Origin: Escherichia coli
Lineage (GTDB): Bacteria > Pseudomonadota > Gammaproteobacteria > Enterobacterales > Enterobacteriaceae
DNA: 9,131 nt
NCBI RefSeq assembly: GCF_003334785.1
Contig: NZ_QOWV01000034.1
Strand: one strand, 5' to 3'
Shown here: one piece after another, positions 1,507-7,194 of the stretch
Layout: every line of letters begins with the position of its first letter
How positions within the stretch are numbered: the stretch's first letter is position 1
Position numbers and translations under genes: made by a program
Notes under the pieces: model-generated
The model's input: the letters and a program-made list of their open reading frames with translations, nothing else
What the model was told of the DNA's origin: nothing
Databases searched by the model: none

Positions 1507-2082
1507 ATGACGCAATCAGAGATGCTGAAATTAATCGCCCGACATGGTTATAACGTTGGATTTGGCGCTAAGAAAAACTTTGCCACCTATGATCTGATTT
1601 GTAAGGCATCCGGTTGGATTAGCTTTATTTCTCTTGCTGTCGGTGTGTTCGCCCTTTTTATTCCTGAGCTGGCCACAAACGTCATTTCCGCGATATTAAT
1701 TATATTTGGTGTTGCTACAATGTACATTCAGTTTTATGACTCGGAAAAGCAGAGTTATGAAAGTGCGGGGATTGAGCAGACCAAAATTTTTAATGAACTT
1801 GAAGTCATCTACCGCAACGTAAAAAGCGATGCAAACTTTGACTATCAGCGTACACAACAATCCATCGACGCTATCATGTCCCGGTTTTACGGCACGGTCA
1901 TCAGCAAACAGATCTTCGGAAGTAACTGGTACGCACATTATAAATTTTACTGTGAATTTGAAAAAGCATGGGTTGAAGAAGAGCTGAACCTGACACTGAA
2001 GGACAAAATCCCGCTTTCGCTCTGCTTTCTCGCCGGTCTGGCGATCATTTTTACTATAGCTGTCATCTGGAAAACGCCCTGA
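1507..2082 (+). CDS. Small multi-pass membrane protein of unknown function (two adjacent N-proximal hydrophobic helices plus a C-terminal one; SLATT-like or Abi-like effector topology is a guess)
   Basis: 191-aa ORF with GAGG RBS. Hydrophobic segments WISFISLAVGVFALFIPEL and ISAILIIFGVATMYIQF (about residues 36-76) and IPLSLCFLAGLAIIFTIAVIW (about 168-188), separated by a charged, presumably soluble ~90-aa region. AT-rich codon usage like the neighbouring defence operon. Confidence 0.7.
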   Translation: MTQSEMLKLIARHGYNVGFGAKKNFATYDLICKASGWISFISLAVGVFALFIPELATNVISAILIIFGVATMYIQFYDSEKQSYESAGIEQTKIFNELEVIYRNVKSDANFDYQRTQQSIDAIMSRFYGTVISKQIFGSNWYAHYKFYCEFEKAWVEEELNLTLKDKIPLSLCFLAGLAIIFTIAVIWKTP

Positions 2083-2634: not shown

Positions 2635-3360
2635 TTATGATGTACATAATACCTTAAAATTATCAACTAGCTGAGCATTAACCTCCATCTGACTAATCCC
2701 CCATAATGCGGCTAACTGTTTCTCTGCAATCCCACTATCCCATGGCATTAGTGGGTCATTACGAAACTTAGCAAATGGCCCATCTGTTTCTGTAAGAATG
2801 CGTGATTTGGGTATTTTCAAAACTAAGGCCTTACCCTTTATTGTATCGAGCATAGCAGGCCCCACTGAGAACCAGCATCCTAAATCAATTGCCCTTTCAA
2901 GCTGCTTAGGTGTTCCAGTGAACCAATGCAATATTGCCACCCCATCGATATTTTCAATCTCATCAAGCACCGCTGATGCACTTCCCCGACTATGGATAGT
3001 CATAATCTTGCCACCAGCCCGATTTACACTGTTGAGAATGTGTCGGAACACTTTCAATTGAATATCCCAATGTTCTTTAAATCCCTGTCCACCATCAAGC
3101 CCTATTTCCCCTACATACTTAGTTTCCGAAAGCAATGAATCAAACAGGTCTAACTCATGCGATCTTTGATGCGCGATTTGAGGATGTAGCCCAAGAGCAG
3201 TTCGGATTCGTTGACTTTCTTTAGCCAATAAAGAAGTACCATGCCATGCTTTAGGTGTTGTTGTCACCGACAGAATATAAGTCCCTCGACGTTTACTTTC
3301 TTCAGCCACGAGGTCTGGCCGAGGATATAAGTCTAGATGACAGTGCATATCGATGCTCAT
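2635..3360 (-). CDS. qatD: TatD-family metal-dependent hydrolase/DNase, QatD of a Qat defence system
   Basis: 241-aa ORF beginning MSIDMHCHLDLY (the HxH metal-binding motif that opens TatD-family TIM-barrel hydrolases), with further conserved His/Asp/Glu positions. ATGA start/stop overlap with the upstream QueC-like gene at 3357-3360. Last gene of the operon. Confidence 0.85.
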   Translation of the reverse strand: MSIDMHCHLDLYPRPDLVAEESKRRGTYILSVTTTPKAWHGTSLLAKESQRIRTALGLHPQIAHQRSHELDLFDSLLSETKYVGEIGLDGGQGFKEHWDIQLKVFRHILNSVNRAGGKIMTIHSRGSASAVLDEIENIDGVAILHWFTGTPKQLERAIDLGCWFSVGPAMLDTIKGKALVLKIPKSRILTETDGPFAKFRNDPLMPWDSGIAEKQLAALWGISQMEVNAQLVDNFKVLCTS

Positions 3361-4676
3361 ACTATGTTCTCACTCAGTAAATAGCTTTCAACCTCATCTA
3401 GGCCATCCTTAAATACTTGCTTGAAATTATCAAATTCTGCCGTAGGCAAAGGGCCACTTTTGGCAATCCATGTACCTATTTTCAAAGTCGATTTCTGCGT
3501 GATCGCAATCCTAAGGGCGATCAGGTCGTCCCTGCGATCTATTTCATTCATTACTTTAGCTAAGGACTGGAAAATATATTCAACATCTCTACTAATTCCC
3601 CCTGCATGAAGTGATGCTCGTCGAATGATACACGGTATACATACCCCACATTGCTGCCCCATTCGTTTCCAATGACTGCAGGATACTGTACTTTCCACAA
3701 TTTTAGATAAGAGCTGCTTATTTGAACATTCGGAGATCATTTTTCCTTTTGTCTTAAACTGATATGGATTGATTATTTGACAAGAAATACCGAGCGCATC
3801 AAAGATCTTTTGTATGCTCGTAATAAAATGTGGATGTGTTGTTCGTGTGCTCAGCGAACCTATCCGCCGTGGAGTAAGTGGTGCATTTAATGAGATAAAT
3901 CCATTTTCAGGTACGAACAAATCAATCTTTTCTTGTTGAGATATCTCTTGTACGGCACAAGCACCTACGGCCGCAAGGGCAAGAAAATTGAGGCTACGAG
4001 TTCGCATCGTAATATCAGTCACGCCTTGATAAATGTGTGGGTCAGCATTAATCTCAAAGCGCGAAAATTGGCCACTTAATTTTTCAGCAATCTGATCTTG
4101 ACGAGACTTATCCCCTTTATAAGCATGACTAACCAAAAGTGGAGCGCGCCCTGCAGCCAGAAGATCTATTGCACCAATAGCTGAATCCAGACCTCCTGAA
4201 AATAAGCTGACACAGTCAAGCCCTTTTAGCTTAATCAGACGATGCCTTGAATGCTGGCTATAAGGCTCTGGCGGTGCATAACCATCGTCACAAAATTCGA
4301 AATCCCAGATGTCTCCACTAAGAAAATGCAAAGCACTCTCAAGTTCTTTCTTTAGACTAATCCATCTGGATGGTTCATGAAGGGGGAGTCGTAACGACAA
4401 TTGGCGGGTCCAACCATCCTCGGAACTTTCACGCTGAACGAAAGTATCTGCTGCAGTTACTGCTAATGCAACACTCAGAAAATCCATGACCTTAGCTGGA
4501 AGCTGTACTCCCAAACGTCTGATCCGATCAATCGCAGGATTCCCGATAACAGATATATCTCCGCGCCTCTGACCACTTAATCCATATAGCTGAACAGGTA
4601 ACACTTTCTCACTTGCTGGCGGCAAATGGTGATGTTTATGATGGAAAACTAATTGTGTCACTGGTATGCCTCCCAT
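3357..4676 (-). CDS. qatC: QueC-like PP-loop ATPase (7-cyano-7-deazaguanine synthase family) with an N-terminal extension, QatC
   Basis: 439-aa ORF. PP-loop motif SGGLDS at residues 160-165 (nt 4182-4199, minus strand). C-terminal cysteine cluster CSHWKRMGQQCGVCIPC resembling the QueC zinc site. Operon context with KAP NTPase and TatD. Confidence 0.8.
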   Translation of the reverse strand: MGGIPVTQLVFHHKHHHLPPASEKVLPVQLYGLSGQRRGDISVIGNPAIDRIRRLGVQLPAKVMDFLSVALAVTAADTFVQRESSEDGWTRQLSLRLPLHEPSRWISLKKELESALHFLSGDIWDFEFCDDGYAPPEPYSQHSRHRLIKLKGLDCVSLFSGGLDSAIGAIDLLAAGRAPLLVSHAYKGDKSRQDQIAEKLSGQFSRFEINADPHIYQGVTDITMRTRSLNFLALAAVGACAVQEISQQEKIDLFVPENGFISLNAPLTPRRIGSLSTRTTHPHFITSIQKIFDALGISCQIINPYQFKTKGKMISECSNKQLLSKIVESTVSCSHWKRMGQQCGVCIPCIIRRASLHAGGISRDVEYIFQSLAKVMNEIDRRDDLIALRIAITQKSTLKIGTWIAKSGPLPTAEFDNFKQVFKDGLDEVESYLLSENIV

Positions 4677-5410
4677 TCTTGCCAGGCCTCAATAATGGCC
4701 TGACGTTCAATTTTTACCATTTGGTTTCGTGTGAACGATCTTATGTTACCGGCAAGTTTTGGTGCCATATGTTTATCAACAACAACTTTAATCAATTCCC
4801 GGAGTTCAATTTCTGCATGAATTGCCTTTGAAGGTGTATCTGCTTTGTTCCATGCCCTATTAGAATCCATTACCATCTGAAGGAAAATACTTTCCGCTAG
4901 ATAACCAATCATTGTGTCAACAATCAAACCATCAGTTATTTTTTGAGGATCGAAAATTTCTACGCCATCAAGAGCCTCCACTAAAGCATGGTTCATGGCC
5001 GCACAGATCTTTTCTGAGTCACCATCCTGTGATGTTAAAGCTTGAGCAATAGTTGATATTGCTATTTCGCATGGAAGGCCTGCCAAACTGCCCAAATCGA
5101 TGCTTGGTTCTCCGGGAGCCGAAGGCATTCCCACTAAAGCCCCAAATAATTCGGCCCCAGCTTGCGTGACACTCCCTAATCGCCGAGCAGCGTTACTGCT
5201 CCCTCCGGAGGCTTTTCGCGCGTAGTGCCCTATGGCTTTTCTGAAATCTGCTCGATTTCCATTTGATACCGCATTTCCCAACGATTCTCGAAATGGCGCA
5301 AACCTCCTTTCTTGCGGCGAGGGTAACGGTTGCTGTGGCTGATCATCAGCCCATGGTGGAACCAGCGGAGAGCCACCTCCTGGACCTTTACTTGATTGTG
5401 ATGTTCCCAT
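4658..5410 (-). CDS. qatB: QatB, protein of unknown function (Gly/Pro/Ser-rich N-terminal ~100 aa followed by a helical domain)
   Basis: 250-aa ORF between the KAP NTPase and QueC-like genes. Start ATG shares one nucleotide with the qatA stop (TAATG at 5408-5412) and the 3' end overlaps the qatC start by 19 nt. Assignment is by operon position; no motif recognised. Confidence 0.6.
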   Translation of the reverse strand: MGTSQSSKGPGGGSPLVPPWADDQPQQPLPSPQERRFAPFRESLGNAVSNGNRADFRKAIGHYARKASGGSSNAARRLGSVTQAGAELFGALVGMPSAPGEPSIDLGSLAGLPCEIAISTIAQALTSQDGDSEKICAAMNHALVEALDGVEIFDPQKITDGLIVDTMIGYLAESIFLQMVMDSNRAWNKADTPSKAIHAEIELRELIKVVVDKHMAPKLAGNIRSFTRNQMVKIERQAIIEAWQEWEAYQ

Positions 5411-7194
5411 TAAGCGTCCTTATTCCATTGTTCATCTTTTAATGCTGCAGTCATCCACGCTGGTCGTTTCATCCCCAACTGTAATTCCTGTAGATAACGA
5501 ATTAATATGCTGGCTGCATCTGTTGAGTAGCGGGCCAACAGACATGCGCCGGAAAAGCCTCTGGGCTTACGATCCCAATCTGATACCTGCCGTAACTGGT
5601 TAATTAAACCTTCCATTACAGGTATTTGCTCCTCACGAGGAAGTGCTTTCAAAAGGTTTTCTGCTGTAGGAGAACTAGTGTTTTTCAATTCAATTAGTGC
5701 ATTTAGTACTTCCCGTCCAGATGGCGATAAACCAACCACATATGCACCTATTGGCATAGTTTCTCGGGACAGATATATGGCGGCCCTTAAGTCAATCCCA
5801 CCAAGACGAGGTTCAAGTTGGGCCCATTGACTGATGAAAGATTTAGTCGTTGGACTATCAGTCCATGTCTTTGGTGCATCAGTAGGTATTTGACCGCCAT
5901 TATCGTCAAGCTGTTTAAGTATCTGGGGAACACCTTGTTCAATATCCACGAGATGATATAAATCAGCGGTGCCATCCACTCCAACACAGCGTTCAAAAAT
6001 TACTAGCTTAGTAATAATTGCTTCATCCAAAGGCATTGCTCGTCGCTTCGCAATTTGAGATCGCATTTTCACAACATTCAACAAGCGTTTAACGATCCTG
6101 GGATTACCATGAATAATTGGAGAGTTGGCTAAAATGGGAGCAATACGGTCAGCACGCGCAAACGCCAGCGCGAGGTTGCTATCATCCGCTTCACCAGTCA
6201 TTTTTAAGGCCTCCTGACGTGAGATTGGTTCATCTTTCCAGGATTGCTGTAACGCCTTCTCTAAGCCCTCACGGAGCATAGTTATTTTTTCGCCTTCTAA
6301 GCCATGTTCAATGGCATAAAGCATGAACAGATACGAACGGATCTCACGGACCCCAGCCTTAGGCACCCGAATAGGAACCTGGATTAGCTTATCCAGATAA
6401 TCTATTTGATGGCGCTGTGATGCCCCTTTGAAGTAATCAGCCACAGAAGAGCGAATCATGTCCTCATCTGCTGCAATAATAAAGGCTGTATTAGTCAAGA
6501 AAAGGAATAGCCTGATAGCTTCAAGTGTATGGATAGCATTGGCAGGGAGACAGCGGTCTAGGTTATCTATTACCACAATGAGTGGCTTTCCAAGTTCTTC
6601 TAGAATTTCCCCATATTCCTTACGAAAGGCATCAATCTGCTGAGGGGGGCTTTTTTTTGTTTGTGGTTTAATCAAACCACAAGCAGTTTCTTTACCTTCT
6701 TTAGCTATATTGCCTAAAGCCTCATACTCTTCCTGGCTCTGGATGCCATCGGTGATATTTCTTAATGCACCAATCCCCCTAGAAAGCAAACCGCCAGTAG
6801 GTAATCCTGCCATTAAAGCTGTACCCTCAGCTAGTAATCCCATAGCTCTAAAACCATCAACTCGACTAAGGAGTCTCTTAGTTTTTGATATAAGGGTAGA
6901 ATTACCTTCAGCAGCTTTTGTCAATTCTGTAGCGATGACTTCAAGAAGTGCGGCACGGGCGTCGTCGTACCCCTGATAGAGCCAAGAGTCAAAATTGATA
7001 ACAATCCAATCTTTGTCGTCTTGCTCAAGTTTTTGCTCTATCAGTTTTAACAGAGAGGATTTACCTGCCCCCCAGTTTCCAAAAATTCCGATAGATACTG
7101 GTAACATATCTTTCGTGGTAAGTACATCCACGGCTAACTGAGATACTTCACCAAAATTTAGGTAGTCTTCTGATGACTCTTTGTCTGACCACAT
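5410..7194 (-). CDS. qatA: KAP-family P-loop NTPase, QatA
   Basis: 594-aa ORF. Walker A GNWGAGKSS at residues 39-47 (nt 7057-7080). Walker B-like PLIVVIDNLDRC, the hhhhDxLDR signature typical of KAP NTPases. AAGGAT RBS 6 nt upstream of ATG. First gene of the four-gene operon. Confidence 0.8.
   Translation of the reverse strand: MWSDKESSEDYLNFGEVSQLAVDVLTTKDMLPVSIGIFGNWGAGKSSLLKLIEQKLEQDDKDWIVINFDSWLYQGYDDARAALLEVIATELTKAAEGNSTLISKTKRLLSRVDGFRAMGLLAEGTALMAGLPTGGLLSRGIGALRNITDGIQSQEEYEALGNIAKEGKETACGLIKPQTKKSPPQQIDAFRKEYGEILEELGKPLIVVIDNLDRCLPANAIHTLEAIRLFLFLTNTAFIIAADEDMIRSSVADYFKGASQRHQIDYLDKLIQVPIRVPKAGVREIRSYLFMLYAIEHGLEGEKITMLREGLEKALQQSWKDEPISRQEALKMTGEADDSNLALAFARADRIAPILANSPIIHGNPRIVKRLLNVVKMRSQIAKRRAMPLDEAIITKLVIFERCVGVDGTADLYHLVDIEQGVPQILKQLDDNGGQIPTDAPKTWTDSPTTKSFISQWAQLEPRLGGIDLRAAIYLSRETMPIGAYVVGLSPSGREVLNALIELKNTSSPTAENLLKALPREEQIPVMEGLINQLRQVSDWDRKPRGFSGACLLARYSTDAASILIRYLQELQLGMKRPAWMTAALKDEQWNKDA

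What the first reader, a model, noticed from the sequence alone, without database searches (positions are those of the whole stretch)
3357..4676. QueC-like QatC carries a ~150-residue N-terminal extension ahead of the PP-loop
In canonical QueC the SGGxDS PP-loop sits within the first ~15 residues. Here SGGLDS is at residues 160-165, preceded by a His-rich N-terminus (FHHKHHHLPP) and an extra domain of unknown function. The extension could be a substrate-recognition or regulatory module specific to the defence role. Caveat: the true start codon could be internal (non-ATG), which would shorten the extension, but no in-frame ATG exists between residue 1 and the PP-loop except M64.
Basis: partly seen in the sequence, partly recalled or inferred. 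Interest (0 to 1): 0.45.

Follow-up and report, generated by a model that had tools for sequence, protein, structure and literature searches.

The report
QatC's known N-terminal extension domain
The extra ~150 residues ahead of the ATP-binding loop of this E. coli anti-phage enzyme (QatC) are real and strongly conserved, but they are the family's standard N-terminal domain, already crystallised and shown to be needed for defence in 2025-2026, so the finding is correct but not new.

Summary
The minus-strand ORF 3357-4676 encodes a QatC whose SGGLDS PP-loop lies at residues 160-165. It sits in a complete qatA-B-C-D operon of an E. coli chromosomal island.

The extension is a genuine domain:
- It matches curated QatC models and the crystallised QatC N-terminal regions.
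- It is present in all 136 diverse full-length relatives examined (PP-loop start: median residue 152).
- Its dN/dS is 0.07-0.11, as low as the catalytic core.
- It folds confidently alone (pLDDT 92).

It is already known. Three structural papers describe it as a four-stranded parallel sheet with helices, and one reports that deleting it abolishes defence. A fourth paper lists its conserved motifs. Its precise role is still unassigned.

Refinements made here:
- The true start is probably the GTG at codon 6 (a GTGA overlap with the qatB stop, GGAGG 7 nt upstream), giving 434 aa.
- The His run elaborates an FHHxH motif conserved only within this subfamily.

The parts
3357..4676 (-). qatC ORF as listed and as annotated in RefSeq (439 aa from ATG 4676; stop codon at 3357-3359)
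   Evidence: PADLOC QatC 1.1e-140; NCBIfam QatC 414 bits against a cutoff of 280
4659..4661 (-). Probable true start codon GTG (codon 6 of the listed ORF). It overlaps the qatB stop as GTGA and gives a 434-aa QatC beginning (M)TQLVFHH
   Evidence: This position is ATG or GTG in all 8 loci compared. 78 of 120 homologues are annotated at 434 aa. Diverse family members start 1-3 residues before strand 1
4669..4673 (-). GGAGG Shine-Dalgarno sequence 7 nt upstream of the GTG. It lies inside the last codons of qatB and reads as 'GG' in the 439-aa version
   Evidence: Junction gaATGGGAGGcctaccaRTGacac is conserved in 7 of 8 loci (GGGAGA in one). The upstream ATG is part of qatB's conserved GAA-TGG (E-W) codons
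4290..4661 (-). Folded N-terminal extension domain, residues 1-124 (434-aa numbering). Strands 2-7, 20-25, (37-39), 87-93 and 118-124; helices 43-48, 56-74, 97-101 and 104-115
   Evidence: AF2 on the domain alone gives pLDDT 92.3 and pTM 0.87, with the same elements in the full-length model. Profile hits to crystallised QatC 9vlk_A and 9zee_B at E~1e-31. dN/dS 0.07-0.11
4221..4289 (-). Proline-rich linker, residues 125-147, between the N-domain and the PP-loop core. It is the least conserved part of the extension across the family
   Evidence: mostly coil, with one short helix at 136-141
4626..4643 (-). His-rich stretch HHKHHH (residues 7-12) at the end of strand 1 and in the loop after it. 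H7, H8 and H10 form a subfamily-conserved FHHxH motif
   Evidence: At least 90% conserved in ~118 homologues of 65-99% identity. Not conserved in diverse representatives or in crystallised PaQatC
4404..4448 (-). Family-invariant motif D72-x4-R77-x6-W84-x-R86, corresponding to EcQatC/PaQatC D75, R80, W88 and R90. D60 (corresponding to D63) lies just upstream at 4482-4484
   Evidence: Invariant or at least 90% conserved in 86 N-domains and 94 full-length sequences. Mapped onto PaQatC. Listed as a conserved motif in PMC13329287
4305..4316 (-). Family-invariant G116-D117-x-W119 at the start of the last strand, corresponding to D121xW123 of EcQatC/PaQatC
   Evidence: PMC13329287
4182..4199 (-). PP-loop SGGLDS (residues 155-160 in 434-aa numbering; 160-165 in 439-aa numbering)
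   Evidence: maps to PaQatC S156/D160/S161, which bind the ATP phosphates
3579..4220 (-). QueC-like Rossmann/PP-loop core, residues 148-361. It includes STRTTHP (T272, T274) and the Zn-site cysteines C328, C338, C341 and C344
   Evidence: Alignment to PaQatC core 145-377 at 42% identity with all cited functional residues conserved. Weak Pfam QueC hits
3360..3578 (-). C-terminal helical extension, residues 362-434
   Evidence: it is the QatB-binding region in the published structures
4658..5410 (-). qatB, the presumed protein substrate of QatC. Its N-terminus is MGTSQSS...PLVPPW
   Evidence: PADLOC QatB 2.3e-130. The MGTS motif is present and is required for defence in the published systems
5410..7194 (-). 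qatA (KAP-family P-loop NTPase). Its stop overlaps the qatB start as TAATG
2635..3360 (-). qatD (TatD-family nuclease). Its start overlaps the qatC stop as ATGA

Best explanation
Residues 1-~147 of this protein are the canonical N-terminal extension domain of QatC, the QueC-family enzyme of the qatABCD anti-phage system. It is a compact alpha/beta domain: a four-stranded parallel sheet (plus one short extra strand in the model) with helices. It is fused through a Pro-rich linker to the PP-loop ATP-pyrophosphatase core and packs rigidly against it. It is translated as part of one polypeptide, most likely from the GTG at window 4661, which is translationally coupled to qatB. Working model: QatC binds QatB 1:1 and holds QatB's free N-terminal glycine (Gly2, after Met removal) in the PP-loop active site. 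It uses ATP to adenylate a still unidentified carboxylate substrate and transfers that substrate to the QatB amine, by analogy with Cap9 deazaguanylation of CD-NTases in type IV CBASS. The N-domain is an obligatory structural part of this enzyme. It contributes part of the QatB-contacting surface and carries six family-invariant residues (D72, R77, R86, L114, D117, W119). These most likely form the interdomain interface or line the substrate cleft. Shown in the literature, on relatives about 28-42% identical by region: the crystal structure, the requirement for defence, and Var1 lying in the QatB interface. Inferred: the chemical reaction and the exact role of the N-domain and its invariant residues.
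For: Family assignment over the full length. The N-domain alone hits crystallised QatC at E=1e-11 as a single sequence and ~1e-31 as a profile covering positions 6-137. Foldseek finds only QatC 9y02_B/9y01_B as significant PDB matches, and all 50 listed AFDB50 hits are QatC-like proteins or fragments of them. Universal in the family: the PP-loop starts at a median of residue 152 (range 128-165) in 136/136 diverse full-length representatives, with 602 representative clusters at E<=1e-30. Purifying selection: dN/dS is 0.07-0.11 in the extension against 0.06-0.12 in the core. Six of the 29 invariant columns lie in the N-domain. AF2 gives pLDDT 92.3 for the domain alone and pLDDT 94.7 with pTM 0.94 for the full length. 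All published functional residues are conserved after mapping. The qatABCD operon is intact with coupled junctions, and QatB carries MGTS. Literature: the N-extension structure and loss of defence on deletion (PMC13279940); Var1 residues 1-151 and Var1 in the QatB interface (PMC13376578); the same description for EcQatC (bioRxiv 10.1101/2025.11.03.686418); the conserved motifs D(x)4R(x)7WxR, DxW and D63 (PMC13329287).
Against: No experiment exists on this particular subtype. It is only 28% identical to PaQatC across the extension and 6% identical in the first 40 residues. The published deletion phenotype could simply reflect misfolding. No group has reconstituted QatC catalysis or detected a QatB modification, so the reaction is an analogy. 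The published basic patch that binds QatB (R407/R410/R414) aligns to Q389/T392/K394 here, in a poorly aligned region, so the interface may differ. I could not inspect coordinates, so the location of the invariant N-domain residues relative to the active site is inferred, not seen.
Confidence: 0.85

Rival explanations
1. The extension is an annotation artefact. Translation really starts near the PP-loop (at M64 or a non-ATG codon), and the upstream codons are not protein.
For: Canonical QueC and Cap9 have the PP-loop within the first ~15 residues. Pfam QueC matches only from residue 155. Candidate TTG/GTG/ATG codons exist at 18, 25, 55, 64, 93 and 116.
Against: dN/dS is 0.07-0.11 across residues 2-147 and 0.13-0.22 even in residues 2-40. 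There are no gaps in ~118 homologues. The region is homologous to the crystallised N-terminal regions from chain residue 12 onward. It folds confidently. All 136 diverse full-length relatives carry it. The only plausible correction is 5 codons.
Confidence: 0.02
2. The N-domain is a degenerate internal duplicate of the QueC/HUP-type nucleotide-binding domain that has lost its PP-loop and its first two helices. It acts as a built-in pseudo-partner for the active domain, so that QatC works as a monomer in a 1:1 complex whereas Cap9 forms a 2:2 complex with its substrate.
Confidence: 0.3
3. The N-domain is a sensor or regulatory module. It binds a phage-derived trigger, the unknown first substrate, or QatA/QatD, and gates the PP-loop active site. 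That would explain why QatC is inactive in vitro.
For: It is required for defence yet lacks recognised catalytic motifs, and the authors suggest regulatory roles. It carries invariant charged and aromatic residues (D60, D72, R77, W84, R86, W100, D117, W119) typical of a binding site. The b1-loop-b2 hairpin (residues 1-40) evolves 2-3 times faster than the rest of the domain (dN/dS 0.13-0.22 against 0.04-0.08) and is unrelated in sequence between subtypes (6% identity), as expected for a specificity surface. No ATP pyrophosphatase activity was seen with QatC, QatBC or QatBCD.
Against: No ligand, partner or conformational change has been observed. ATP binding leaves the complex unchanged. QatBC alone is enough for defence against some phages, so QatA and QatD are not obligatory partners. 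Invariant residues can equally be structural interface residues. The domain packs rigidly on the core in the model (pTM 0.94), with no sign of a mobile sensor.
Confidence: 0.25
4. The His-rich segment (FHHKHHH) is a metal-binding or catalytic site of the extension.
For: There are five His in six residues. H7, H8 and H10 are at least 90% conserved among ~118 homologues of 65-99% identity. The segment sits at the C-terminal end of strand 1 and the following loop, the usual ligand-binding position in Rossmann-like folds.
Against: It is not conserved across the family. Diverse representatives and the crystallised Pa and Ec QatC have unrelated sequences there. H11 and H12 are specific to the E. coli lineage. 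No metal other than the Cys4 zinc and the ATP-bound Mg2+ is reported in the structures.
Confidence: 0.1

Closest known systems
QatC of qatABCD (P. aeruginosa WP_003160498, PDB 9ZEE/9ZEF and 9Y01/9Y02; E. coli NCTC9009, PDB 9VLK/9VLL)
   Same: The three-part architecture is the same: N-extension of ~145-150 aa, QueC-like PP-loop core and helical C-extension. SGGxDS is at ~155. The STRTTHP Thr pair, the Cys4 Zn site and the N-domain invariants D63/D75/R80/W88/R90/D121/W123 are all present. The operon and the QatB MGTS tail are also the same.
   Different: This is a divergent subtype. Identity to PaQatC is 28% in the N-extension (6% in the first 40 residues), 42% in the core and 23% in the C-extension. 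It has a subfamily-specific FHHxH motif after strand 1. The first Zn cysteine is closer to the CxxCxxC motif (C328 then C338, against C334 then C354). QatA and QatB score below the NCBIfam cutoffs and match separate PADLOC models. There are no experimental data on this subtype.
Cap9 (type IV CBASS QueC-like protein ligase; PDB 9NTO)
   Same: It has a PP-loop QueC-family core and acts on the N-terminal glycine of a partner protein inserted in the active site. This is the proposed mechanistic analogue.
   Different: Cap9 is a minimal protein of ~185 aa with no N- or C-extension. It keeps the canonical Tyr/Asp CDG-binding residues and forms a 2:2 complex. QatC replaces Tyr/Asp with Thr/Thr, and its product is unknown.
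Canonical QueC (7-cyano-7-deazaguanine synthase; TIGR00364, PF06508; PDB 3BL5)
   Same: Rossmann-like PP-loop fold, SGGxDS motif and Cys4 zinc site.
   Different: In QueC the PP-loop lies within the first ~15 residues and there is no N-domain. The window protein scores 21.3 bits against a cutoff of 150.3. QatC lacks YxQxHxxE, VPxRN and YPDC, and E. coli QatC fails to complement a queC deletion (PMC13329287).
[quoted passage not shown]
   Same: An N-terminal accessory region in front of the PP-loop core is a recurring theme in the superfamily (PMC13376578).
   Different: The QatC N-domain has no sequence relative outside QatC: no Pfam match, PDB profile hits only to QatC, and AFDB50 top hits all QatC-like.

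Membership tests
QatC (Qat anti-phage system QueC-like protein) | Full-length match to curated QatC profile models above threshold | tested here: met
   NCBIfam NF041925 equivalog at 414.2 bits (cutoff 280) over residues 53-433. PADLOC PDLC02214 at E=1.1e-140 over residues 7-433
QatC (Qat anti-phage system QueC-like protein) | N-terminal alpha/beta extension of ~145-150 residues preceding the PP-loop, with the motifs D(x)4R(x)6-7WxR and DxW plus a conserved Asp (D63 in Ec/Pa numbering) | tested here: met
   D60, D72, R77, W84, R86, D117 and W119 are present and map to Pa D63, D75, R80, W88, R90, D121 and W123. The AF2 fold matches the published description. The profile hits the QatC PDB chains at E~1e-31
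QatC (Qat anti-phage system QueC-like protein) | SGGxDS PP-loop, the ATP-site Arg/Phe, an invariant Thr pair replacing the QueC Tyr/Asp, and a Cys4 Zn site | tested here: met
   S155-S160, H179, R222, F226, T272/T274, and C328/C338/C341/C344
QatC (Qat anti-phage system QueC-like protein) | Encoded in a qatA-qatB-qatC-qatD operon, with a QatB carrying the N-terminal MGTS motif | tested here: met
   PADLOC QatA E=0, QatB 2.3e-130, QatD 5.8e-97. The junctions overlap, and QatB starts MGTSQSS. The operon is the same in 7 related loci
QatC (Qat anti-phage system QueC-like protein) | Confers phage resistance; the N-extension and the PP-loop are required | not testable with these tools
   Shown only for the P. 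aeruginosa and E. coli NCTC9009 systems (PMC13279940 Fig. 2c/3c, and the bioRxiv preprint)
Canonical QueC (preQ0 synthase) | Match to TIGR00364 above cutoff, with the PP-loop at the extreme N-terminus | tested here: not met
   21.3 bits against a cutoff of 150.3. The PP-loop starts at residue 155 or 160
HUP / PP-loop (QueC-like) fold, for the N-domain alone | Structural match to HUP-class domains with the same strand order and connectivity | tested here: inconclusive
HUP / PP-loop (QueC-like) fold, for the N-domain alone | Detectable sequence-profile homology to PP-loop domains, or a relic of the SGGxDS motif | tested here: not met
   hhalign probability 17.6% over 28 columns, not robust to controls. 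No PP-loop hits in the PDB profile search at E<=10. No Pfam hits. No S.G.DS in residues 1-147

The most novel reading that the evidence does not exclude
The QatC N-terminal extension is an ancient, degenerate duplicate of the QueC/HUP nucleotide-binding domain. It has lost its PP-loop and first two helices and now serves as an intramolecular pseudo-partner, with a fast-evolving b1-b2 hairpin and, in this subtype, an FHHxH motif. It shapes or gates the active site of the catalytic domain. None of the structural papers I read proposes this.
Probability: 0.3. Interest if true: 0.4.

Novelty: already known. Interest (0 to 1): 0.15.

Why it matters
For the scan, it matters mainly as a calibration point. 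That domain had already been described structurally and genetically in 2025-2026, and it is built into the curated QatC models.

What remains open in the field is what the N-extension actually does and what reaction QatC catalyses.
- the list of six invariant N-domain residues
- the faster-evolving first hairpin
- the fold-level resemblance of the N-domain to QueC itself

The start-codon correction (434 rather than 439 aa) matters for anyone cloning or tagging this E. coli subtype. One preprint reports that an N-terminal tag placed before QatB's Met1 severely reduced defence. The RefSeq QatC start adds five residues that are probably not translated.

Tried and rejected
1. A homologue search with only the first 159 residues returned mostly truncated fragments and was uninformative. 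It was replaced by full-length searches.

2. 'N-domain only' proteins of 148-251 aa in Acinetobacter looked like free-standing modules. Both lie at contig ends directly after qatA-qatB, so they are truncated qatC genes. Rejected.

3. M64 or another internal start. Rejected on conservation, selection and homology upstream of it.

4. A Pfam scan of the full protein and of all 86 N-domains found no family for the extension.

5. hhalign of the N-domain profile against QatC's own core gave only a 28-column helix match (probability 17.6%). Reversed controls scored lower (12.6 and 16.6 against 24.7). However, 17 of 60 block-shuffles reached the observed score, and that control preserves local segments, so the result is inconclusive.

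6. I searched for the 'D63 catalytic residue' attributed to Gao et al. 2026 by PMC13329287. It is not in the main text or the searchable supplements, so the claim is unverified.

7. The 'DNA-binding protein' names on homologues are not supported. The published EMSA was negative for DNA and RNA.

8. I could not obtain model or PDB coordinates. I therefore made no distance measurements from N-domain residues to ATP or to QatB Gly2.
Full report
**What is in the window.** The 9.1-kb window is an E. coli chromosomal island. The operon stretch 2635-7194 is 100% identical to several RefSeq chromosomes and is found in 259 of 5,426 complete E. coli genomes. On the minus strand it carries a complete qatA (5410-7194), qatB (4658-5410), qatC (3357-4676) and qatD (2635-3360) operon. 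All four genes are recognised by PADLOC and NCBIfam models. The operon is flanked by an IS3-type element, an orphan SLATT gene, an unknown 373-aa ORF and a VasL-like fragment.

**Checking the observation.** SGGLDS is at residues 160-165. The N-terminus reads MGGIPVTQLVFHHKHHHLPP, and the only Met codons before the PP-loop are M1 and M64. Pfam's QueC model matches only weakly, and only from residue 155 onward. The QatC-specific models cover nearly the whole protein: PADLOC residues 7-433 and NCBIfam residues 53-433 at 414 bits against a cutoff of 280. The 'extension' is thus already part of the family definition.

- Among ~118 homologues of 65-99% identity, residues 6-152 average 73% identity with no gaps. 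The core averages 79% and the C-terminal extension 67%.
- Codon-level Nei-Gojobori estimates on eight loci give dN/dS of 0.07-0.11 for the extension, indistinguishable from the core at 0.06-0.12.
- A search of 1.84 billion cluster representatives found 602 clusters at E<=1e-30. All 136 full-length proteins among the best 150 have the PP-loop starting between residues 128 and 165, with a median of 152.
- The N-domain alone is homologous to the N-terminal parts of the two crystallised QatC proteins: E=1e-11 as a single sequence and ~1e-31 as a profile covering positions 6-137.
- AlphaFold2 folds the isolated 150 residues with pLDDT 92.3 and pTM 0.87. The full-length protein gives pLDDT 94.7 and pTM 0.94, so it is one compact body.

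**Start codon.** There is one, but it lies only five codons in.
- Codon 6 is GTG (window 4661). It overlaps the qatB stop as GTGA and lies 7 nt downstream of GGAGG.
- In all eight loci compared, this position is ATG or GTG.
- The upstream ATG is simply the A of GAA plus the TG of TGG in qatB's conserved ...E-W-E-A-Y-Q* tail. Its conservation therefore says nothing about its use as a start.
- 78 of 120 close homologues are annotated at 434 aa beginning MTQLVFHH. In the 439-aa annotations, residue 6 is always M or V.
- Diverse family members begin 1-3 residues before strand 1.
- The other two junctions of the operon are also tight overlaps, TAATG and ATGA.
- The likely product is therefore 434 aa, with the PP-loop at 155-160. 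RefSeq annotates 439 aa.

**What is already known.** Three structural studies have solved QatC or the QatB-QatC complex. [quoted passage not shown] Gao et al. report that deletion constructs removing the N- or C-terminal extension abolish defence. The Var1 region is listed among the parts of QatC that contact QatB, although the main contacts are a core loop and the C-terminal helices. The authors state that the extensions 'lack obvious catalytic motifs' and 'may play additional regulatory roles'. A family-wide survey lists the conserved motifs D(x)4R(x)7WxR, DxW and D63 (PMC13329287). My alignments recover exactly these residues. D72, R77, R86, L114, D117 and W119 are invariant, and D60, W84, W100, L111, F113 and G116 are at least 90% conserved. 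They map one-to-one onto the published numbering. All cited active-site, Thr-pair and zinc-site residues are also conserved. The finding is therefore correct but already described.

**The His-rich stretch.** H7, H8 and H10 (434-aa numbering; FHHxH) are at least 90% conserved among relatives of 65% identity or more. H11 and H12 are peculiar to the E. coli lineage. In more distant QatCs, including both crystallised ones, this segment is unrelated. In the model it lies at the end of strand 1 and in the loop after it. It is a subfamily feature of unknown significance, not a family catalytic motif.

**Mechanism.** The best-supported model comes from the literature on relatives. QatC binds QatB 1:1, and QatB's Gly2 amine sits in the PP-loop active site next to ATP. 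The PP-loop serines, the Thr pair and the QatB MGTS tail are all required for defence. By analogy with Cap9, QatC is thought to adenylate a carboxylate and ligate it to QatB. No group has reconstituted the reaction or detected the modification, and the substrate is probably not CDG. Within this model, the N-domain is an obligatory, rigidly attached part of the enzyme. Whether its invariant residues line the substrate cleft, form the interdomain interface or bind a regulator is not established. I could not measure distances because no coordinates were available.

1. The start-codon correction described above.
2. This operon is a divergent Qat subtype.
   - QatC is 28% identical to PaQatC in the N-extension and 6% identical in the first 40 residues.
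   - QatA and QatB fall below the NCBIfam cutoffs.
   - PGAP therefore leaves qatA and qatB unnamed in most genomes.
3. Within the N-domain, residues 2-40 evolve 2-3 times faster (dN/dS 0.13-0.22) than residues 41-120 (0.04-0.08).

The evidence for point 4 is only fold-level. hhalign gives 17.6% probability and is not robust to controls. Profile searches find no PP-loop protein, and Pfam finds nothing. I rate this reading at about 0.3.

**Verdict.** The feature is a known, family-defining domain, so novelty is 'already known' and interest is low (0.15).

Noticed in passing
window 4659-4676 (-): RefSeq/PGAP annotates qatC from the ATG at 4676 (439 aa). The conserved RTG at 4661, the GGAGG 7 nt upstream and the GTGA overlap with the qatB stop indicate a 434-aa product. 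The upstream ATG is a by-product of qatB's conserved GAA-TGG codons.
   Followed up: yes
window 4658-7194 (-) (qatB, qatA): This operon is a divergent Qat subtype. NCBIfam QatA scores 385.8 (cutoff 600) and QatB 74.4 (cutoff 100), and PADLOC has separate models for them. PGAP therefore names qatA only 'KAP family P-loop NTPase fold protein' and qatB 'hypothetical protein' in most of the 259 E. coli genomes that carry the operon.
   Followed up: partly
window 7326-8447 (-): A 373-aa ORF lies directly upstream of qatA on the same strand. It has no Pfam match and only a weak PADLOC hit to PD-Lambda-4_B (E=3.6e-6). It contains a perfect 9-bp x 5.8 tandem repeat (7414-7465) encoding (AEV)n. The corresponding gene is annotated as 445 aa in NZ_CP127034. 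It could be another defence gene or an accessory gene.
   Followed up: partly
window 1507-2082 (+): A SLATT-domain two-transmembrane protein (NCBIfam SLATT_6; PADLOC CBASS-type '2TM effector', E=1.8e-82) is convergent with qatD. It has no visible partner genes and sits next to an IS3-family element (130-1343). In NZ_CP127034 an IS66 element occupies this side instead. It is probably an orphan remnant of another defence system.
   Followed up: no
window 3489-3503 (-) (QatC residues 387-391, 434-aa numbering; approximate, low-confidence alignment): The basic patch of PaQatC that binds QatB and is required for defence (R407/R410/R414) aligns to Q389/T392/K394 here. The alignment in this region is poor (23% identity in the C-extension). 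The QatB-QatC interface of this subtype may therefore differ.
   Followed up: no
literature (PMC13329287 against PMC13279940): [quoted passage not shown] 2026. D63 does not appear in that paper's main text or in its searchable supplements, so I could not verify the attribution.
   Followed up: partly
L009 4001-4447; L010 4001-4756: Database proteins of 148-251 aa that look like free-standing QatC N-domains (Acinetobacter) are qatC genes cut off at contig ends. They are not independent modules.
   Followed up: yes
window 4542-4658 (-) (QatC residues 2-40): The first beta-hairpin of the N-domain evolves 2-3 times faster (dN/dS 0.13-0.22) than the rest of the domain (0.04-0.08). It is unrelated in sequence between Qat subtypes, which would fit a specificity or interaction surface.
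   Followed up: partly
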